Notes under the pieces: model-generated
The model's input: only the letters and a program-made list of their open reading frames with translations
Databases searched by the model: none
Told to the model about the DNA's origin: nothing
Shown here: positions 4,747 through 59,699 of the stretch, in pieces
Position numbering within the stretch: the first letter of the stretch is position 1
Layout: each line of letters begins with the position of its first letter
Position numbers and translations under genes: made by a program
From: a virus
Taxonomy: Duplodnaviria; Heunggongvirae; Uroviricota; Caudoviricetes
DNA: 64,000 bases
IMG/VR virus record: IMGVR_UViG_2974747673_000001
Span: 66,915-130,914 of that record
Strand: one strand, 5' to 3'

Positions 4747-5008
4747 TCACTTCCTTTACATATCTCTTTTTAATTTCTTTATCATAATATTTACTCCATT
4801 TTTGATATTCTTTAGATTTCTTTTTCTCATACATTTTAGCATACTTTTCTTTGATTGTCAATATATCCTTATCAAATTTCTTTTGTTGTTTTTCAGTTAA
4901 ACTAGCATAACAAGGACATAATATATCTCTAATTTTTGCCATTTGTAATTGAGATTGAATAGCCACATTTAATAAATTCATACCAACTAAATAATCTTCA
5001 TTTTTCAT
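4733..5008 (-). CDS. Hypothetical protein. The likely start is the internal ATG at 5008, preceded by AAGGAGGT; the ORF-track start at 5065 lies inside the promoter.
   Basis: RBS AAGGAGGT sits 8 nt upstream of the ATG at 5008-5006 (minus strand). A consensus promoter is immediately upstream. Confidence 0.4.
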   Translation of the reverse strand: MKNEDYLVGMNLLNVAIQSQLQMAKIRDILCPCYASLTEKQQKKFDKDILTIKEKYAKMYEKKKSKEYQKWSKYYDKEIKKRYVKEVNAND

Positions 5009-5036
5009 ATTTACCTCCTTTATTAATTGATAACCT

Positions 5037-5065
5037 ATTATAACATATAGAACAAAAGATGTCAA
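5037..5065 (-). promoter_or_regulatory. sigma-A-type promoter TTGACA-N17-TATAAT (minus strand)
   Basis: -10 is the reverse complement of 5037-5042 and -35 the reverse complement of 5060-5065. Preceded by terminator hairpin 5087-5106. Confidence 0.55.
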
Positions 5066-5074
5066 GAAATATTT

Positions 5075-5106
5075 TTACAAAAAGAAAAGAGAGTGTTACC
5101 TCTCTT
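5075..5106 (-). terminator. rho-independent terminator (AAGAGAG-loop-CTCTCTT plus T-run on the minus strand)
   Basis: Hairpin 5087-5106 with an A-run on the plus strand at 5077-5088. Confidence 0.5.
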
Positions 5107-54793: not shown

Positions 54794-55159
54794 ATGGTAG
54801 ATATTGGAAATTTAAAAGATTTTGATATATTTAAAAATGAAATTTTAAGAAATTTAGGATTAGTAGTAAAAACTTTTAAAATTATTTATAATGAAGAAAA
54901 TAAAATACCTATAGTATTCTTAGAATTATATGAGGATAACGAAGAAATTAAAAATAAACTAACTCAAGTTTTAAATACACTAAATATTATAGATGATTTT
55001 TTAACTTTAGGATTGAATATTGAAATTTCTTATGGAAATGAGGATTTAACAATAACTGCTTTAGATGGTAGAGAAATTTTAAATAGAGATTTTGGTAGAT
55101 ATTTGATAACTCATTTATATTCTACTATAATAAATTATAAAGGAGATGTGATAGAATGA
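54794..55159 (+). CDS. hypothetical protein
   Basis: 121 aa. Confidence 0.4.
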   Translation: MVDIGNLKDFDIFKNEILRNLGLVVKTFKIIYNEENKIPIVFLELYEDNEEIKNKLTQVLNTLNIIDDFLTLGLNIEISYGNEDLTITALDGREILNRDFGRYLITHLYSTIINYKGDVIE

Positions 55160-57372
55160 GAACATTATTATTAATGAGAGGAGCTATGGCTTCAGGTAAA
55201 AGTCAATTTATAAAGGATAATAATTTACAACCTTATACTTTATGTGCAGATGACTTCAGAGTTGCAATATGTAATCCTATTTTATCATTAGATGGAGAAT
55301 TTTCTATTAGCCAAAAAAATGATAGACTAGCTTGGAATATGTTGTTACAATGTCTTGAAGAAAGAATGAAAAGAGGGGATTTTACAGTTATAGATGCTAC
55401 TCATTCCACTCAAAAGATGTTAAATAATTATAAGGCATTGGCAGAAATGTATAAGTATACTATATTTGTAAAACAATTAGATGTACCTTTGGAAACTTGT
55501 TTAGAAAGAAATAGAACTAGAGATAAATATAAATTTGTTCCAGAAGAAGCTATAAAGAGATGTCATACTTTAATTAGTCAAACAGAATTATCAAAAGGTG
55601 TAAAAAAAATTGATAAAATAGAAGATATTAATAATTTCTATGTAGATAATATTACAGACAAATATAACAGAGTTATTATAGTTGGAGATGTGCATTCTTG
55701 TAATACAGTTTTAGGACAAATGTTTGATAAAGAGGAATATAGAGAAGATACACTATATGTATTTTTAGGAGATTATTTAGATAGAGGAATAGAACATAAA
55801 GAAACTTTAAAGAGAATGATGTACTTATCTACTTTGAAAAATGTAATATTGCTTGAAGGAAACCACGAATTAAATTTTGGTGGTTGGTGTCAAGGTAGAG
55901 AAATAAAAAGTAAAAAGTTCTTAAATGAAACTCTTAAAATTTTAATAGATGGACTTAATGATGAAGAAATAGAACAATTTAAGTCAAAAGGTAGACAATT
56001 CTATAAAAAACAAAGACAAGCCTATGCTTTTGAATTTGAGGGTAAAAAGTATTTATGTACACATGCAGGATTACCTAGTGTGCCTTTGATGACATATATT
56101 GCAACAGATGATATGATTAAAGGTATAGGAGATTATGAAGATGATATTAGTGGTATCTATGAAAATAATTATGCACTAGGAAAATGTCAAGACTTTATTC
56201 AAATATTTGGACATAGAGCTAATAAATGTACTGAACATTCTATTAATTTAGAGGGTCAAGTAGAATTTGGTGGAAATTTAATGTACTATGTACTTGAAAA
56301 AGGAAAAGAACCTAGATTAGAAAGTATAAAGAATGAAGTTTATGATAAAGAATATTTCAATAGAGAAAGAGAAAAATATAATAGAACAGAAAGTAAGAAT
56401 TTAACTCAAAACGAAGAAGTAAATAAACTTATATTAAGTAAATTAGTAAAAGTAAAACAATGTGAACCTAACTTATTATCTTTGAATTTTGGAGATAATG
56501 TTTTTAGAAAGAAACAATGGAATGATATTACAGTTAAAGCTAGAGGACTTTTTGTAGATAAGGAAACAGGTAATGTATCTATAAGAAGCTACAATAAATT
56601 CTTTAATTATGGAGAACTTAAAGAAACAAGAGATGAGTATTTGATGAAAAATTTACAATATCCATTAATAGCAAAATATAAAGAAAATGGATTTTTAGGT
56701 CTTATGTCCGTAGTGAATGGAGAGGTTGTATTAGCGACAAAATCAACTACACAAGGGGATTATAAAGAGTATTTTCAAGAACTATGGAATAGAGAGAACT
56801 CAAACATAAAGATGTATTTACAAGAATTTGCAAGTAAAGAAAATTGTACTTTCATATTTGAAGTTAAATCTTTTAAAGACAAACATATAATAGATTTTAA
56901 TAAAGAGGAACTTGTCTTATTGGATGTTGTTAAAAACAGTTTAGAGGTCAATGGAATTAATATTGATACAAATTATAGCTCAAAGTGTTTAAATGAGTTT
57001 TATAACTATGTGAGAGCCTTAGATTGCAAAATAATAAGAGTAATAGATACATATGCTATATTAGATGACTTCGAACATTTTAAAGAGTTATTACAAACTT
57101 TTAAATATAATGCTTTTGAAGGATTTGTATTCACAGACCAAAATGGATTTATGTTTAAATGGAAATCTGATTATTATTTAAAGTGGAAGAGTGTAAGATA
57201 CTGTTATCAATATTATTTAAAACATTGGCAAGAAGCATTTCCATTTAGAATCTGTAAAGATAGTTTTGAGATTAATTTTATGAAATGGGTTACAGAGCAA
57301 GACATTAATTGGTTAAAATCTGTCAACTATGTAGATGTAATAAATGAATATAAAAATAATATAGGTAGTTAA
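55156..57372 (+). CDS. trifunctional polynucleotide kinase / metallophosphoesterase 2',3'-phosphatase / Rnl1-type RNA ligase (Pnkp-like RNA repair enzyme)
   Basis: Kinase P-loop 'GAMASGKSQF'. Lambda-phosphatase-type motifs 'GDVHSC', 'GDYLDRG', 'GNHE'. Ligase motif I 'KYKENGFLG' (compare T4 Rnl1 KEDG), motif IV 'FEGFVF', motif V 'FKWKS'. The domain order matches C. thermocellum Pnkp. Confidence 0.7.
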   Translation: MRTLLLMRGAMASGKSQFIKDNNLQPYTLCADDFRVAICNPILSLDGEFSISQKNDRLAWNMLLQCLEERMKRGDFTVIDATHSTQKMLNNYKALAEMYKYTIFVKQLDVPLETCLERNRTRDKYKFVPEEAIKRCHTLISQTELSKGVKKIDKIEDINNFYVDNITDKYNRVIIVGDVHSCNTVLGQMFDKEEYREDTLYVFLGDYLDRGIEHKETLKRMMYLSTLKNVILLEGNHELNFGGWCQGREIKSKKFLNETLKILIDGLNDEEIEQFKSKGRQFYKKQRQAYAFEFEGKKYLCTHAGLPSVPLMTYIATDDMIKGIGDYEDDISGIYENNYALGKCQDFIQIFGHRANKCTEHSINLEGQVEFGGNLMYYVLEKGKEPRLESIKNEVYDKEYFNREREKYNRTESKNLTQNEEVNKLILSKLVKVKQCEPNLLSLNFGDNVFRKKQWNDITVKARGLFVDKETGNVSIRSYNKFFNYGELKETRDEYLMKNLQYPLIAKYKENGFLGLMSVVNGEVVLATKSTTQGDYKEYFQELWNRENSNIKMYLQEFASKENCTFIFEVKSFKDKHIIDFNKEELVLLDVVKNSLEVNGINIDTNYSSKCLNEFYNYVRALDCKIIRVIDTYAILDDFEHFKELLQTFKYNAFEGFVFTDQNGFMFKWKSDYYLKWKSVRYCYQYYLKHWQEAFPFRICKDSFEINFMKWVTEQDINWLKSVNYVDVINEYKNNIGS

Positions 57373-57724: not shown

Positions 57725-57753
57725 TTGACAAAGTTAATTTTGTATGTTATACT
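57725..57753 (+). promoter_or_regulatory. sigma-A-type promoter (TTGACA-N17-TATACT) driving the non-coding leader and tRNA array
   Basis: -35 at 57725-57730 and -10 at 57748-57753. Nearly identical to the minus-strand promoter at 35787-35815. Confidence 0.6.
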
Positions 57754-58279
57754 TATTTTGTAAGATGAAAGAGCTGATTTAGTCGCTAAAGTATATCTTA
57801 CATTTATGGAATACACCAAAACTTTTGGCTGTGGAAGTTGTGATGACACACTCTTTCCTTGTAAGTTCGTGAGAGGTTTCAGACAGCAAGTGATGAGGTA
57901 GTTAGCTAACAAGGTTTGGAACTTACCCTTGCTAATACACCCTTGTCCAATTAAACTTAAAAACGAGTTTTAGGATTTTGACTCTTAAAGATATATCTTA
58001 TTAAAAGCCTTTAAAAATAAAATCAGTTACTCTTTATCATAAAAGAGCCTTTTAAACAGTTCTAGTTTTAGGTTAATAAACGAACTCTTATATAGGTTTA
58101 TCTCTCATTTACCCTATATACTTAAAAATGAGAGGTTAAATAGATACTCAACTAAAAGATTGTACTAAGTTTCCATTGTAGATTTTGAGTAAGATTACAC
58201 ATTATAATATTCGCCTCCTTTCAGAATATAAATGAGTTGAGTATCTATTTAATACTAAAAAGAAGTAGTATTTTATATG
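57754..58279 (+). ncRNA. ~520 nt non-coding transcribed leader or candidate structured RNA upstream of the tRNA array
   Basis: No credible ORF. Lies downstream of the strong promoter. Locally elevated GC (57830-57950). 8-bp helix GTAAGTTC/GAACTTAC (57864-71 / 57925-32). Palindrome GTTAGCTAAC (57905-14). 15-bp inverted repeat AAATAGATACTCAAC/GTTGAGTATCTATTT (58139-53 / 58236-50). Confidence 0.3.
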
Positions 58280-58353
58280 GTGGGAGTAGTGTAATGGTAG
58301 CACAACAGTTTGTGGCACTGTTAGATTGGTTTCAAATACCAACTCTCACACCA
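58280..58353 (+). tRNA. tRNA-His (anticodon GTG) with A73 discriminator, encoded CCA and a genomic G at -1
   Basis: Hand-folded cloverleaf. Acceptor GTGGGAG/CTCTCAC, D stem GTGT/GCAC, anticodon stem ACAGT/ACTGT with loop TTGTGGC, T arm TTGGT-TTCAAAT-ACCAA. Confidence 0.7.
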
Positions 58354-58362
58354 AAACCTTAT

Positions 58363-58436
58363 TGCAGAGTGGAGGAAAAGTACCTCACTAGGCTCATTCC
58401 CTAGAGAAGTGGGAGCATTACCCACCTCTGCCACCA
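58363..58436 (+). tRNA. tRNA with CAT anticodon (Met, fMet or Ile2) and a non-canonical T loop
   Basis: Acceptor TGCAGAG/CTCTGCC with a 1-72 mismatch. D stem GAGG/CCTC. Anticodon stem CTAGG/CCTAG with loop CTCATTC. T stem GTGGG/CCCAC with loop AGCATTA. CCA encoded. Confidence 0.5.
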
Positions 58437-58441
58437 AATAT

Positions 58442-58515
58442 GTACTCTTGACCGATTAGTTAGGTACTTGTCTGCAAAACAAGGTAAATTAGTGCAATTC
58501 TAATAGGGTACTCCA
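58442..58515 (+). tRNA. tRNA-Cys (GCA)
   Basis: Acceptor GTACTCT/AGGGTAC. Anticodon stem CTTGT/ACAAG with loop CTGCAAA. T stem ATTAG/CTAAT with unusual loop TGCAATT. CCA encoded. Confidence 0.55.
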
Positions 58516-58521
58516 AAATAT

Positions 58522-58610
58522 GTGTAGATATGCAAATTGGTGAAGCAAACAGACTGTAAATCTGTTCCCTCGTGGTAAACATGTAGGTTCAAATCCTACT
58601 CTACACACCA
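58522..58610 (+). tRNA. tRNA-Tyr (GTA), type II with long variable arm
   Basis: Perfect acceptor GTGTAGA/TCTACAC. Anticodon stem ACAGA/TCTGT with loop CTGTAAA. 17-nt variable region. T arm GTAGG-TTCAAAT-CCTAC. CCA encoded. Confidence 0.65.
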
Positions 58611-58613
58611 AAT

Positions 58614-58700
58614 AGAGAGTTTGCTTAATTGGTTAAAGCACCAGTCTTGAAAACTGGAGTCGTAACAGACATTAGGGTTCGAGTCCCTAACTCTCTGCCA
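58614..58700 (+). tRNA. tRNA-Ser (TGA), type II
   Basis: Acceptor AGAGAGT/ACTCTCT. D stem GCTT/AAGC. Anticodon stem CCAGT/ACTGG with loop CTTGAAA. Variable hairpin GTC..GAC. T arm TAGGG-TTCGAGT-CCCTA. CCA encoded. Confidence 0.7.
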
Positions 58701-58706
58701 ACATAT

Positions 58707-58782
58707 CTGTGGGTAGTTCAGTTGGTAGAACTCTTGTTTTGGGAACAAGAAGTCGGGAGTTCAAATCTCTCCCCACAGACCA
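58707..58782 (+). tRNA. tRNA-Pro (TGG)
   Basis: Acceptor CTGTGGG/CCCACAG. D stem GTTC/GAAC. Anticodon stem CTTGT/ACAAG with loop TTTGGGA. T arm GGGAG-TTCAAAT-CTCTC. CCA encoded. Confidence 0.7.
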
Positions 58783-58788
58783 TAATAT

Positions 58789-58936
58789 GCCATATTACCT
58801 CAAAGGTAGAGGGTCTATAAGTAGAAATAAGAGATGTGGGTTCGAGTCCTACTTTAAACTTGAGGGTTTAAATAGCTTAATTGGTAAAAGCCTTGTGAAT
58901 TATAGAAAGGTATCAGTTCAAGTCTGATATATGGCA
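58789..58936 (+). tRNA. Split or interleaved tRNA-like locus. Outer tRNA halves are separated by an 83-nt insert that carries a T arm plus 3' acceptor, followed by a 5' acceptor plus D arm of a second tRNA-like unit.
   Basis: Outer unit: acceptor GCCATAT (58789-95) pairs with ATATGGC (58929-35); D arm CCTC-AAAGGTA-GAGG; anticodon stem TCTAT (58814-18) pairs with ATAGA (58902-06); T arm ATCAG-TTCAAGT-CTGAT. Insert: GTGGG-TTCGAGT-CCTAC + TTTAAAC (58836-59), then GTTTAAA-TA-GCTT-AATTGGTAA-AAGC (58866-91). No CCA is encoded. Confidence 0.35.
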
Positions 58937-58965
58937 CATAAAATTAATAAAGGAAAATAAGATAT

Positions 58966-59205
58966 ATGTTAAAACTTTATACAAAGTCTAATTGTCCTAA
59001 TTGTTTACAACTTAAAAATGTTCTAAGTAATCATAGTATATCATTTGAGATAATTGAAGATGAGAAAGAATTAATGAGAGTTGGAAGTAAATCTAGGATA
59101 ATGTCTGCACCTATTTTAGAAATCAATGAAAAATATTATAGTTATCAAGATTTTAATAATTTCATTGAAATATTTTCACAAATATTATTAAAAAATTCTA
59201 AATAA
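58966..59205 (+). CDS. NrdH/glutaredoxin-like redoxin
   Basis: 79 aa, N-terminal 'KSNCPNCLQLK' CxxC thioredoxin-fold motif. Confidence 0.65.
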   Translation: MLKLYTKSNCPNCLQLKNVLSNHSISFEIIEDEKELMRVGSKSRIMSAPILEINEKYYSYQDFNNFIEIFSQILLKNSK

Positions 59206-59209
59206 GTGC

Positions 59210-59238
59210 TTGACAAAATAAAATTAATATGTTATAAT
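59210..59238 (+). promoter_or_regulatory. sigma-A-type promoter TTGACA-N17-TATAAT
   Basis: -35 at 59210-15 and -10 at 59233-38. Followed by a ~460 bp non-coding leader carrying repeats. Confidence 0.55.
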
Positions 59239-59249
59239 ACAAATATAAA

Positions 59250-59545
59250 GAACATTACAGCAATATAAATTCTAATAAATTTGATACTGCAAATATTGAA
59301 AGAGAAAGATGTTCTTTTAAAATAAACAATAAACAGAATATAACAGCAAACACTTGGTTAATAGAGCAATATACTTTTAATATATCAAGCTAATTAAAAT
59401 ATTCTGTTATGATACCCATACAGTTGCTAACAGCAAATTATTTTGTAAATACAAATTTATAATTCGGAAAAAATTAAAATAGGATATTAAAACAAAAAGC
59501 AACTGTTCTATAAGGTTGTAAAATATACAGAACTTTACAGCAAAC
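59250..59545 (+). repeat. iteron-like repeats WWACAGCAA (x4) plus an ACAGTTGC direct/inverted pair in a non-coding region
   Basis: TTACAGCAA ~59257, TAACAGCAA ~59344, TAACAGCAA ~59429, TTACAGCAA ~59537. ACAGTTGC at ~59420 and its reverse complement GCAACTGT at ~59500. Confidence 0.35.
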
Positions 59546-59699
59546 TGAACAATAAAAAGAAGATGATTAATAGTAAAGCTACCAATTTTACAAATTACAT
59601 TTATTTGTGCAGAGGGTATTACCTTATGTGCTGTTTAGGTTACAATAAGTTCTGTAAATTTATATTTATAAATACAAATTTAAGAGAAAAGGAGAAAAT

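What the first reader, a model, noticed from the sequence alone, without database searches (positions are those of the whole stretch)
58789..58936. Interleaved / split tRNA-like locus: two perfect 7-bp acceptor pairings nested around an 83-nt insert that contains permuted tRNA halves
A canonical 5' half and a canonical 3' half pair with each other across ~150 nt. The 5' half is acceptor GCCATAT, D arm CCTC/GAGG and anticodon-stem strand TCTAT. The 3' half is ATAGA, variable loop, T arm ATCAG-TTCAAGT-CTGAT and acceptor ATATGGC. Between them the order is reversed. A T arm with textbook loop GTGGG-TTCGAGT-CCTAC and acceptor 3' strand TTTAAAC comes first. Then comes the matching acceptor 5' strand GTTTAAA followed by 'TA' and a D arm GCTT-AATTGGTAA-AAGC. 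A GGTTCGAGTCC T-loop consensus arising by chance in this AT-rich DNA is very unlikely. The locus may be an intron-containing tRNA whose intron is tRNA-like, a circularly permuted tRNA inserted into another tRNA's anticodon loop, or a recombination scar. Given the RNA ligase and tRNA-maturation genes in the same genome, a spliced or ligated tRNA is a real possibility.
Basis: seen in the sequence. Interest (0 to 1): 0.7.

Follow-up and report, generated by a model that had tools for sequence, protein, structure and literature searches.

The report
Two-headed tRNA mimic in phage
A Fusobacterium phage carries, at the end of its tRNA gene cluster, a conserved 148-base RNA gene that folds into two complete tRNA-shaped bodies joined where their anticodon loops should be, so it cannot decode; it most resembles the tRNA-mimicking domain of bacterial Y RNAs, and it looks like the proposed tRNA-dimer ancestor of those RNAs.

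Summary
Window 58789-58936 (phage Fnu1) holds an outer tRNA body (7-bp acceptor, D arm, T arm). In place of its anticodon loop sits an 83-nt insert: T arm, closed 7-bp acceptor hairpin, UA, D arm.

I found 21 sequence variants in related oral phage contigs. 96% of proposed pairs are kept, and there are compensatory changes in the connector stem, the inner T stem and the inner acceptor. The element is at least as conserved as the neighbouring tRNA-Pro gene.

It is not a decoding, intron-containing or permuted tRNA:
- Neither body has an anticodon loop.
- ARAGORN's intron mode assigns Ile, Ser, Phe, Val or Ala depending on the variant. Its Ile call matches the sixth "tRNA" in the FNU1 paper.
- No CCA is encoded, although all five neighbouring tRNAs encode it.
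- The discriminator base varies.

It is not a recombination scar either.

The inner module has the architecture of the YrlA Y-RNA tRNA-like domain (Rfam 31 bits, the range of other phage examples). It lacks a Ro-binding motif. The phage encodes a structurally Ro60-like protein (gp112) and separate ACAGCAA-motif hairpin RNAs.

Best reading: a stable, non-decoding double tRNA mimic, a new variant of the YrlA kind. Its function (decoy or adaptor in tRNA damage and repair) is inferred, not shown.

The parts
58789..58795 (+). Outer acceptor stem, 5' strand (GCCATAT). It is preceded by the same ATAT leader as the neighbouring tRNA genes.
   Evidence: Pairs 7/7 with 58929-58935. Of the 20 variants with an intact 5' end, 19 are invariant; L274 has a C-to-U change that gives U.G. 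Leader comparison.
58798..58812 (+). Outer D arm: CCTC / AAAGGTA / GAGG, with A14 and G18G19.
   Evidence: Helix 2 is 98.8% paired across variants. RNAalifold recovers it.
58814..58820 (+). Connector stem A, 5' strand (TCTATAA). Its first 5 bp occupy the position of the outer body's anticodon stem.
   Evidence: Pairs with 58900-58906. 5 of its 7 pairs show changes on both sides between the two subtypes: TCTATAA/TTATAGA versus TTCTACG/CATAGAA, which arose from one paired insertion.
58821..58826 (+). Internal loop, 5' side (GTAGAA). In most type I variants, GUA-GAA opposite GGA fits the k-turn consensus. Fnu1 itself has GAA opposite.
   Evidence: Read from alignments A5 and A6. The k-turn assignment is my inference from the consensus as I recall it. 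Type II variants do not share it.
58827..58831 (+). Connector stem B, 5' strand (ATAAG). It occupies the position of the inner body's anticodon stem (3' strand of that stem).
   Evidence: Pairs with 58892-58896 (CTTGT). 93% of cells are paired, but there is no compensatory change, and 7 variants have an A.C mismatch. RNAalifold does not recover it. This is the weakest helix.
58832..58835 (+). Variable-loop equivalent of the inner body (AGAT).
   Evidence: Invariant in the alignment. It ends in a pyrimidine, as the YrlA and tRNA variable loops do (bioRxiv 10.1101/312249).
58836..58852 (+). Inner T arm: GTGGG / TTCGAGT / CCTAC.
   Evidence: Helix 5 is 98% paired, with one compensatory G-C to U-A change in L279.
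58853..58872 (+). Inner acceptor-like hairpin: TTTAAAC, loop TTGAGG, GTTTAAA. It is closed by a loop and has no free end.
   Evidence: 7/7 pairs in Fnu1. One pair switches U-A to A-U in 9-10 variants. The loop varies in sequence and length (5-6 nt). 13 variants carry a central U.U mismatch.
58873..58891 (+). UA dinucleotide plus inner D arm: GCTT / AATTGGTAA / AAGC.
   Evidence: Helix 7 is 98.8% paired. UA, A14 and GG are invariant.
58892..58906 (+). 3' strands of connector stem B (CTTGT), the internal loop (GAA) and stem A (TTATAGA).
58907..58928 (+). Outer variable loop (AAGGT) and outer T arm (ATCAG / TTCAAGT / CTGAT).
   Evidence: Helix 8 is 100% paired, with one C-to-U change that gives U.G.
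58929..58936 (+). Outer acceptor 3' strand (ATATGGC) plus discriminator A. No CCA follows (the next bases are CAT).
   Evidence: all five neighbouring tRNA genes encode CCA and this element does not. The discriminator is A, G or T among variants.
58280..58782 (+). Context: tRNA cluster (His, Cys, Tyr, Ser, Pro) on the same strand. The element starts 6 nt after the CCA of tRNA-Pro.
   Evidence: ARAGORN and Rfam.
17777..19333 (-). Context: gp112, a DUF2828 + DUF7788 protein with a Ro60-like predicted fold.
   Evidence: Pfam. AlphaFold2 model, pLDDT 88.8. The top 8 Foldseek PDB hits are all Ro60, aligned along the full length, E 5e-7 to 4e-5.
55156..57372 (+). Context: gp169, a kinase + metallophosphatase + RNA ligase fusion (Pnkp-like RNA repair enzyme), 1.4 kb upstream.
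   Evidence: Pfam AAA_33, Metallophos and RNA_lig_T4_1.

Best explanation
The locus is a gene for a stable, non-decoding RNA of about 148 nt. The RNA consists of two tRNA-shaped bodies joined head to head through their anticodon stems.

Structure (shown):
- The outer body is formed by the 5' and 3' ends. It has a 7-bp acceptor stem with a free end, a D arm and a T arm.
- The inner body is circularly permuted: T arm, acceptor hairpin closed by a 5-6 nt loop, UA, D arm. This is the layout of the tRNA-like domain of YrlA-type bacterial Y RNAs.
- A connector of about 15 layers (stem A, an internal loop, stem B) replaces both anticodon loops.

Biogenesis and function (inferred):
- The RNA is co-transcribed with the tRNA cluster. 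RNase P probably cuts its 5' end, because it shares the ATAT leader of its neighbours.
- Its 3' end is probably matured like a tRNA that lacks an encoded CCA.
- The inner 7-bp acceptor may also be an RNase P substrate, as in Mycobacterium smegmatis YrlA.
- It acts as a tRNA mimic that presents two tRNA elbows but nothing to cleave or decode. It would be a decoy or adaptor for proteins that recognise tRNA shape, in the conflict over tRNA damage and repair. The phage is otherwise equipped for that conflict: a Pnkp-like ligase, a Thg1-like enzyme, a Ro60-like protein and its own tRNAs.

Origin (inferred): its size (71 + 6 + 71 nt) and part order fit a descent from two adjacent tRNA genes. That matches the published model for the origin of YrlA.
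For: Structure:
- The nested fold is the RNAfold minimum-energy structure for Fnu1.
- Across 21 distinct variants, 96.2% of cells are paired and 7 pairs change on both sides. Controls with partners slid by 1-3 columns give 26-53% paired.
- RNAalifold independently recovers 7 of the 8 helices.
- ARAGORN at default thresholds calls each body a tRNA once a synthetic loop is added.
- The tertiary-contact nucleotides (U8, A14, G18G19, T54-T55-C56, A58) are present in both bodies and invariant.

Non-decoding:
- No anticodon loop exists. ARAGORN's intron mode gives inconsistent identities across variants.
- No CCA is encoded, whereas 5 of 5 neighbouring tRNAs encode it.
- The discriminator varies among A, G and T.

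Selection:
- The element is 85-89% identical between phages. The adjacent glutaredoxin gene is 74-83% identical and tRNA-Pro is mostly 82-83%.
- The outer halves are nearly invariant.

Kinship with YrlA:
- The Rfam YrlA match scores 31.1 bits, E 1.7e-4, and spans stem A, stem B, the T arm, the hairpin and the D arm.
- Other phage YrlA-like RNAs score 31-46 bits with the same model.
- The YrlA layout, the M. smegmatis RNase P precedent and the dimeric-tRNA origin model come from PMC4201824 and bioRxiv 10.1101/312249.

Context:
- Ro60-like gp112.
- Pnkp-like ligase and Thg1.
Against: - There is no expression or end-mapping data. Every functional step is inferred.
- For most variants other than Fnu1, the single-sequence minimum-energy fold is not the nested fold. 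The consensus structure is 2-9 kcal/mol less stable than the minimum. This is common for AT-rich tRNAs, but it is still a caveat.
- Stem B has no compensatory change, has an A.C mismatch in 7 variants, and is not recovered by RNAalifold.
- The covariation comes from few independent events: one paired insertion explains 5 of the 7 doubly changed pairs. Alignment A8 was fitted to the model.
- 13 variants have a U.U mismatch in the inner acceptor.
- The element lacks both the YrlA GNCGAA motif and the ACAGCAA motif that marks the RNAs next to DUF2828 genes. A link to the Ro-like protein is therefore not supported by sequence.
- The element is dispensable. Closely related phages that keep the Pnkp-like ligase lack it: L004 and L007 carry the gene, and in the P0012-type contigs only a truncated 5' neighbour was seen. 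The Ro-like gene is also present in element-lacking phages (L004's contig and one P0012-type contig, L244)..
Confidence: 0.6

Rival explanations
1. It is a genuine Y RNA: the YrlA-type partner of the phage's Ro60-like protein gp112. The connector or one tRNA body binds the Ro-like ring, and the tRNA-like domain tethers it to an effector such as PNPase or a tRNA enzyme.
For: - The YrlA model matches the inner module and both connector stems.
- gp112 has a Ro60-like fold.
- In unrelated phages, YrlA-like RNAs lie within 0.4-3 kb of DUF2828 genes (L014, L023/L101, L045).
- Phage Ro60 with Y-like RNAs has precedent in Thermus phage phiLo (PMC12135203).
Against: - The element has neither GNCGAA nor the ACAGCAA motif found in those DUF2828-linked RNAs and in the gp112 leader.
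- It lies about 39.5 kb from gp112.
- Five separate ACAGCAA hairpin RNAs are better candidates for the Ro-like protein's partners.
- Phages with the Ro-like gene can lack the element.
Confidence: 0.2
2. It is a precursor of one or two decoding tRNAs (split, permuted or intron-containing). Cleavage and rejoining by the phage Pnkp-like RNA ligase would mature it.
For: - ARAGORN's intron mode calls a tRNA here. The call matches the sixth 'tRNA-Ile, 91 bp' reported in the FNU1 genome paper in size and GC content (PMC6591296).
- An RNA ligase gene lies 1.4 kb upstream.
- Permuted tRNA genes exist in algae and archaea (cited in bioRxiv 10.1101/312249).
Against: - No conserved 7-nt anticodon loop can be made. 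The predicted 'anticodon' differs by variant (Ile, Ser, Phe, Val, Ala), and the intron length (58-76 nt) and position shift.
- In the Fnu1 prediction the anticodon arm is built from the inner D loop, with mismatches.
- The connector strands co-vary with each other, not within themselves.
- No group I intron was found.
- No CCA is encoded and the discriminator varies.
Confidence: 0.07
3. It is a decaying remnant: two former tRNA genes scrambled by recombination, kept only by chance or by hitch-hiking.
For: - The element is present or absent among close relatives, with a 5-bp CATAA repeat at its borders.
- Two damaged copies exist: L278 has lost part of the inner T loop, and L279 has lost the outer 5' strand.
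Against: - There are 19 intact variants with 96% of pairs kept and compensatory changes.
- Conservation equals or exceeds that of a working tRNA gene and the neighbouring coding gene.
- Both elbows keep all tertiary-contact nucleotides.
Confidence: 0.05
4. It is a cis-acting processing or stability element for the glutaredoxin mRNA that starts 29 nt downstream.
For: It is always immediately 5' of the glutaredoxin gene, with no terminator between them.
Against: In phages without the element, tRNA-Pro sits at the same distance from the same gene. Any tRNA would therefore serve. This reading also does not explain the second, inner tRNA body.
Confidence: 0.05

Closest known systems
YrlA-type bacterial and phage Y RNAs (Rfam RF02553; Chen et al. 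2014, PMC4201824; YrlA structure preprint, bioRxiv 10.1101/312249)
   Same: - The order T arm, closed acceptor-like hairpin, UA, D arm.
- The T-loop and D-loop tertiary nucleotides are conserved.
- The 'anticodon stem' is made by the flanking strands and continues into a further stem through an internal loop or kink.
- There is no anticodon loop.
- The gene lies beside tRNA genes, in a genome with a Ro60-like protein.
- The acceptor is 7 bp, as in M. smegmatis YrlA.
   Different: - The distal module is a second, complete tRNA body with a free acceptor end, not a Ro-binding helix.
- There is no GNCGAA(N)G motif.
- It is not adjacent to the Ro-like gene.
- It scores 31 bits against a gathering score of 69. 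Other phage examples also fall below that score.
Dimeric tRNA precursor, the proposed ancestor of YrlA (Sim and Wolin 2018, as cited in bioRxiv 10.1101/312249)
   Same: - Its size is exactly that of two class I tRNAs plus a 6-nt spacer (71 + 6 + 71 nt).
- The part order is D1, T1, spacer, D2, T2.
- It sits in a tRNA array with similarly short spacers of 3-6 nt (one spacer, His-Cys, is 88 nt).
   Different: - The acceptor strands pair crosswise (1 with 4, 2 with 3). The two ordinary cloverleaves therefore cannot form.
- Both anticodon arms have been replaced by strands that pair with each other.
Circularly permuted tRNA genes (Cyanidioschyzon and some archaea)
   Same: In the inner unit the 3' half lies upstream of the 5' half, with the acceptor closed by a loop.
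   Different: - Those precursors carry a full anticodon loop and a bulge-helix-bulge junction, and they mature into decoding tRNAs.
- Here there is no anticodon loop, and the host is a bacterium, in which no such splicing system is known.
Other tRNA mimics (tmRNA tRNA-like domain, viral 3' tRNA-like structures)
   Same: An L-shaped mimic that uses acceptor/T-arm stacking. The outer body has a free acceptor end.
   Different: - Those mimics carry a CCA end and are aminoacylated, with defined identity elements.
- Here CCA is not encoded and the discriminator is not conserved.
- ARAGORN finds no tmRNA.

Membership tests
Canonical decoding tRNA | 7-bp acceptor stem, D arm and T arm with the conserved loop nucleotides | tested here: met
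   Both bodies have them. ARAGORN at default thresholds calls each body a tRNA once a synthetic anticodon loop is added.
Canonical decoding tRNA | Anticodon arm: 5-bp stem closed by a 7-nt loop, with U33 and a conserved anticodon | tested here: not met
   The stem continues into the insert and no loop exists. ARAGORN at default settings finds nothing in 21 of 21 variants. Rfam's tRNA model gives only partial matches of 24.6 and 21.5 bits, below its 29-bit cut-off.
Canonical decoding tRNA | 3' CCA encoded, as in the other tRNA genes of this cluster, and a conserved discriminator | tested here: not met
   The element reads GGC-A-CAT, whereas all five neighbours encode CCA. The discriminator is A, G or T among variants.
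Intron-containing tRNA (bacterial group I intron or archaeal-type intron) | After the intron is removed, a consistent anticodon loop and amino-acid identity | tested here: not met
   ARAGORN -i gives Ile(aat), Ser(gga), Phe(aaa), Val(gac) or Ala(ggc/agc), with introns of 58-76 nt at shifting positions.
Intron-containing tRNA (bacterial group I intron or archaeal-type intron) | An insert with a self-splicing intron fold, or a bulge-helix-bulge junction plus a splicing endonuclease | tested here: not met
   The 83-nt insert is itself a tRNA-like cloverleaf core. Rfam finds no intron family in the window. I did not search for an endonuclease gene.
Circularly permuted tRNA gene | 3' half upstream of the 5' half, joined through the acceptor | tested here: met
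   In the inner unit the order is T arm, TTTAAAC, loop, GTTTAAA, D arm.
Circularly permuted tRNA gene | A complete anticodon loop, and processing into a decoding tRNA | tested here: not met
   The inner 'anticodon stem' (ATAAG/CTTGT) opens into the connector, not into a loop. Whether it is processed cannot be tested here.
YrlA Y RNA (RF02553) | T arm, closed acceptor-like stem-loop, UA, D arm, with conserved elbow nucleotides | tested here: met
   The Rfam alignment covers all of these. They are invariant across variants.
YrlA Y RNA (RF02553) | A score at or above Rfam's gathering threshold | tested here: not met
   31.1 bits against a threshold of 69. Clear phage YrlA-like RNAs, including one with a GCCGAAC motif, also score only 31-46 bits.
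YrlA Y RNA (RF02553) | A Ro-binding helix with the GNCGAA(N)G motif in the 5' strand | tested here: not met
   The motif is absent from the 148 nt. A tRNA D arm and acceptor occupy the corresponding region.
YrlA Y RNA (RF02553) | Encoded next to a Ro60 (TROVE) gene and bound by the Ro60 protein | tested here: inconclusive
   A Ro60-like protein is encoded in the same genome, but about 39.5 kb away. By Pfam it is DUF2828, not TROVE. Binding cannot be tested here.

The most novel reading that the evidence does not exclude
The RNA is a living intermediate on the route from tandem tRNA genes to YrlA-type Y RNAs. It would be a dimeric-tRNA transcript fixed in a domain-swapped fold, which still presents one free and one closed acceptor end. 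In the cell, RNase P would cut it at both acceptor 5' ends, as happens in M. smegmatis YrlA. The product would be a two-piece, base-paired 'double tRNA' that acts as a bivalent, uncleavable decoy or scaffold against host tRNA-targeting defences.
Probability: 0.2. Interest if true: 0.8.

Novelty: new variant of a known kind. Interest (0 to 1): 0.62.

Why it matters
**Annotation.** The locus matches in size and GC content the sixth 'tRNA' in the FNU1 genome paper (tRNA-Ile, 91 bp). It is not a decoding tRNA.

**A new layout for tRNA mimicry.** Two full tRNA bodies are fused at the anticodon stems. I found no description of this in the papers I could search.

**A test case for the origin of YrlA.** The published idea is that YrlA Y RNAs arose from dimeric tRNA transcripts. 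Here all four arms of the supposed ancestor are still intact and under selection.

**Phage biology.** The element adds to a picture in which these oral phages carry a toolkit aimed at tRNA damage: their own tRNAs, a Pnkp-like ligase, Thg1, and a Ro60-like protein with its own hairpin RNAs. Fusobacterium phages are being developed as therapeutics, so accessory RNAs that affect host range could matter in practice.

Tried and rejected
- **Metagenome scan.** My one scan used too loose a pattern (inner T loop plus outer T arm).
- **Viral-contig patterns.** Patterns anchored on the outer acceptor, on the inner module, or on the D arm plus T arm returned only the five contigs already known.
- **GTDB species genomes.** The scan found nothing, so there is no evidence of a prophage or chromosomal copy.
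- **Route that worked.** I reached the variants through the neighbouring glutaredoxin protein and exact-protein contig look-ups.
- **RNAalifold on three sequences.** The structure was muddled. It became informative only with 21 sequences.
- **Single-sequence folding.** It reproduces the nested fold for Fnu1 but not for most variants.
- **Search with the covariance model.** The model built from the element scored ordinary tRNA pairs at 48-69 bits. ARAGORN confirmed all of these as two normal tRNAs except L153, so I found no second lineage with the same layout.
- **Two side-by-side cloverleaves.** I rejected this fold. The acceptor strands do not pair, and neither connector strand can form an anticodon arm on its own.
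- **K-turn reading.** The type I internal loop fits a k-turn, but type II variants do not share the feature and Fnu1 itself deviates. I record it only as a note.
- **Burroughs and Aravind 2016.** This paper on RNA repair systems and their tRNA-like partners could not be retrieved. I do not rely on it.
Full report
**Source and setting**

The window is the second half of Fusobacterium phage Fnu1 (NC_055035/MK554696; window position plus 66914 gives the genome position). It is 100% identical over this region to phages FNU2 and FNU3. The locus follows a same-strand cluster of five tRNA genes: His, Cys, Tyr, Ser and Pro, at 58280-58782. It starts 6 nt after the CCA of tRNA-Pro and ends 29 nt before a glutaredoxin gene at 58966-59205. 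ARAGORN at default settings does not call it, and Rfam's tRNA model does not call it at its cut-off.

Reading the sequence gives this order of parts:

- Outer 5' half: GCCATAT, UA, CCTC-AAAGGTA-GAGG, G.
- Connector, 5' strands: TCTATAA, GTAGAA, ATAAG, then AGAT.
- Inner module: GTGGG-TTCGAGT-CCTAC, TTTAAAC, TTGAGG, GTTTAAA, UA, GCTT-AATTGGTAA-AAGC.
- Connector, 3' strands: CTTGT, GAA, TTATAGA.
- Outer 3' half: AAGGT, ATCAG-TTCAAGT-CTGAT, ATATGGC, A.

Both 7-bp acceptor pairings are perfect and nested. RNAfold's minimum-energy structure for the Fnu1 sequence is this nested fold. When I closed each body's stem with a synthetic 7-nt loop, ARAGORN at default thresholds called both a tRNA. Each body is therefore a full cloverleaf that lacks only the anticodon loop.

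**Homologues**

DNA similarity searches of deposited phages found only Fnu1, FNU2 and FNU3. Loci encoding relatives of the upstream Pnkp-like ligase gave two diverged copies, and also relatives that lack the element. Contig look-ups through homologues of the adjacent glutaredoxin gave many more. In total there are 21 distinct sequences of two subtypes, which differ in the connector:

| Subtype | 5' strand | 3' strand |
|---|---|---|
| Type I | TCTATAA-GTAGAA-ATAAG | CTTRT-GRA-TTATAGA |
| Type II | TTCTACG-GGCA-ATAAG | CTTAT-CAGG-CATAGAA |

The element is absent, with clean boundaries, from several close relatives (L004, L007 and all P0012-type contigs). In Fnu1 a 5-bp CATAA repeat flanks it. 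Its upstream neighbour varies (tRNA-Pro or tRNA-Ser-GCT), so it behaves like one more cassette in a shuffling tRNA array. No copy was found in one genome per bacterial species.

**Support for the fold**

I built a covariance model from the type I sequences using the proposed structure and aligned all 21 sequences to it. The counts are as follows:

- 96.2% of cells form standard pairs.
- 7 pairs change on both sides: 5 in connector stem A, 1 in the inner T stem and 1 in the inner acceptor.
- When the 3' partners are slid by 1-3 columns, pairing drops to 26-53% and almost no double changes remain.

RNAalifold, predicting freely on the same alignment, recovers 7 of the 8 helices, including a 5-bp stem A of exactly anticodon-stem length.

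Caveats:

- The alignment is fitted to the model.
- The five double changes in stem A stem from one event, a paired insertion of U and A.
- Stem B has no compensatory change, has A.C in 7 variants, and is not recovered by RNAalifold.
- 13 variants have a U.U mismatch in the inner acceptor.
- For most non-Fnu1 variants the single-sequence minimum-energy fold differs from the consensus by 2-9 kcal/mol.

**Selection**

Between Fnu1 and its relatives the element is 85-89% identical. The adjacent glutaredoxin gene is 74-83% identical at the nucleotide level. tRNA-Pro is 82-83% identical, except in L005 where it is identical. The outer halves are nearly invariant.

Two copies look damaged. L278 has lost part of the inner T loop. 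L279 has lost the outer 5' strand, but its inner T stem carries a compensatory change.

**Why it is not a decoding tRNA**

- Neither body has an anticodon loop. The connector strands pair with each other.
- With its intron option, ARAGORN calls the Fnu1 locus 'tRNA-Ile(aat), 91 bases, 58-nt intron'. This matches in size and GC content the sixth tRNA listed in the FNU1 genome paper (PMC6591296). That prediction builds its anticodon arm from the inner D loop.
- On the other variants the same option gives Ser(gga), Phe(aaa), Val(gac), Ala(ggc) or Ala(agc), with introns of 58-76 nt. The intron reading is therefore an artefact of a real outer tRNA body.
- All five neighbouring tRNA genes encode CCA. 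This element does not, in any variant.
- The discriminator is A, G or T among near-identical copies. This argues against a conserved aminoacylation identity.
- The element does share the ATAT leader of its neighbours. That fits 5' processing by RNase P, which is an inference.

**What it resembles**

Rfam's YrlA model matches 58814-58909 at 31.1 bits, E 1.7e-4. The match aligns stem A, stem B, the T arm, the closed hairpin and the D arm.

YrlA RNAs are bacterial and phage Y RNAs whose effector domain is a tRNA mimic with this permuted order and a closed acceptor. M. smegmatis YrlA has a 7-bp acceptor, is cut by RNase P and receives CCA (PMC4201824; bioRxiv 10.1101/312249).

The score is below Rfam's gathering threshold of 69. 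However, a dozen phage RNAs with the same module that I recovered by pattern search score only 31-46 bits, including one with a canonical GCCGAAC motif. Ordinary adjacent tRNAs can give weak false matches; the Ser-Pro junction here scores 18.9 bits. In such pairs the two acceptor strands do not pair, whereas here they pair 7 out of 7.

The element differs from YrlA in its distal module. It has a second, complete tRNA body with a free acceptor end instead of a Ro-binding helix, and it has no GNCGAA motif. None of the other YrlA-like RNAs I inspected has such an outer body. The best covariance-model hits elsewhere were ordinary tRNA pairs.

**Origin**

The element measures 71 + 6 + 71 nt. That is two class I tRNAs plus a spacer in the 3-6 nt range of most spacers in the array, with the parts in the order D1, T1, spacer, D2, T2. 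This is what the published model for the origin of YrlA from a dimeric tRNA transcript predicts. In this case the 'left-over' D arm of the first tRNA and T arm of the second are still intact and form a second body. I regard it as a plausible intermediate or parallel offshoot of that route. This is an inference.

**Context**

- gp112 (17777-19333, minus strand) is DUF2828 + DUF7788 by Pfam. Its AlphaFold2 model has pLDDT 88.8.
- The eight best PDB matches of that model are all Ro60, aligned along the full length (E 5e-7 to 4e-5, TM 0.37-0.52). They include the Ro60 of Thermus phage phiLo.
- The phage also encodes a kinase-phosphatase-ligase fusion 1.4 kb upstream of the tRNA cluster, and a Thg1-like enzyme.
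- The RNAs that track with DUF2828 genes carry a different motif, ACAGCAA. This applies to YrlA-like RNAs beside DUF2828 genes in unrelated phages. It also applies to a hairpin in the gp112 leader, a four-hairpin array downstream of the glutaredoxin gene and the leader of a chromosomal F. necrophorum DUF2828 gene.
- The 148-nt element lacks this motif. Phages with the Ro-like gene can lack the element. I therefore rate a direct Ro-like partnership as a rival explanation (0.2), not the lead.

**Mechanism and confidence**

- Shown: a conserved, selected fold of two tRNA bodies with no decoding capacity.
- Inferred: co-transcription with the tRNA cluster, since no terminator is predicted between the promoter-like site at 57725 and the promoter at 59210.
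- Inferred: RNase P processing at G58789 and perhaps at G58866.
- Inferred: action as a bivalent tRNA-shape mimic, a decoy or adaptor for tRNA-binding proteins in the conflict over tRNA cleavage and repair.

I give 0.6 to the overall statement. The structural part alone deserves about 0.85. The specific function deserves about 0.3.

**Novelty**

This is a new variant of a known kind: YrlA-type tRNA mimics and tRNA-like noncoding RNAs. It also corrects a published tRNA call.

Noticed in passing
window 59210-59660 (+): A perfect sigma-70-type promoter (TTGACA-17-TATAAT, with TG) is followed by four tandem hairpin RNAs. Each is closed by a 9-10 bp terminal stem, and in each the 5' strand is followed by (U/A)ACAGCAA(A). 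Approximate spans: 59247-59318, 59331-59410, 59415-59508 and 59528-59658. Rfam has no match. They look like an array of Y-RNA-like genes of an undescribed type.
   Followed up: partly
window 19355-19480 (-), upstream of gp112: The same kind of promoter and a fifth ACAGCAA hairpin (AAACAGAAGTT-UACAGCAA...AACTTCTGTTT) lie in the leader of the Ro60-like gene gp112. A chromosomal F. necrophorum DUF2828 gene has ACAGAACTTAACAGCAAAA in its leader (L283 2925-2945). This suggests a cognate RNA motif for DUF2828 proteins, acting as a partner RNA or as an autoregulatory site.
   Followed up: partly
window 17777-19333 (-): gp112 is annotated 'RNA-binding protein' and is DUF2828 + DUF7788 by Pfam. Its predicted fold has Ro60 as its eight best PDB matches, although no TROVE hit is found by sequence. 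DUF2828 may be a large, unrecognised branch of Ro60-like proteins: 5801 homologues were found among the 8000 candidates scored.
   Followed up: partly
L014 ~4950-5090; L023 4026-4133 and 4204-4325; L045 ~2680-2800; L041 282-399: In unrelated viral contigs, YrlA-like RNAs (T arm, closed acceptor, D arm) carry ACAGCAAA instead of the GNCGAA Ro-binding motif. In L014, L023 and L045 a DUF2828 gene lies within 0.4-3 kb; no DUF2828 match was found in the fetched part of L041.
   Followed up: partly
L153 966-1135 (+): A different multi-domain tRNA-like RNA follows a tRNA-Asp gene. It has two consecutive T arm / closed acceptor hairpin / UA / D arm modules (the second hairpin has a GAAA tetraloop), enclosed by one 8-bp stem (AGAAGAGG/CCTCTTCT). 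ARAGORN calls nothing there.
   Followed up: no
L063 4410-4900 (+): An array of Y-like RNAs shares a CUUAGAAC motif. One has a tRNA-type acceptor and T arm (GGGGAGG...CCTCCCC) around a long insert. Two have YrlA-like modules.
   Followed up: no
L248 1881-1947 (+), and the same position in L003, L251-L257, L261-L276: In related phages, upstream of tRNA-His, there is a 67-nt tRNA-like gene: acceptor GCAAAAG/CTTTTGC, a D arm, a normal T arm, and only a 4-bp stem with a 5-nt loop in the anticodon position. ARAGORN does not call it. It is absent from Fnu1.
   Followed up: no
window 57725-58280 (+): About 520 nt of non-coding sequence lie between a strong promoter-like site (TTGACA-17-TATACT, with TG) and tRNA-His. 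No Rfam match and no ORF is annotated there. In L004 and L007 the corresponding region holds a conserved hairpin-like element (GCGACAT...ATGTAGGTGTCGC).
   Followed up: no
window 58783-58788 and 58937-58941: The element is bordered by a 5-bp direct repeat, CATAA. Relatives without the element have a single CATAA at the junction (L004 10076-10082, L007 11302-11308). This fits gain or loss by microhomology.
   Followed up: partly
L262 1-1360: In one related phage the Pnkp-like ligase gene product is 1091 aa long and carries homing-endonuclease domains (Hom_end, and a faint LAGLIDADG hit). This suggests an intein or an endonuclease insertion.
   Followed up: no
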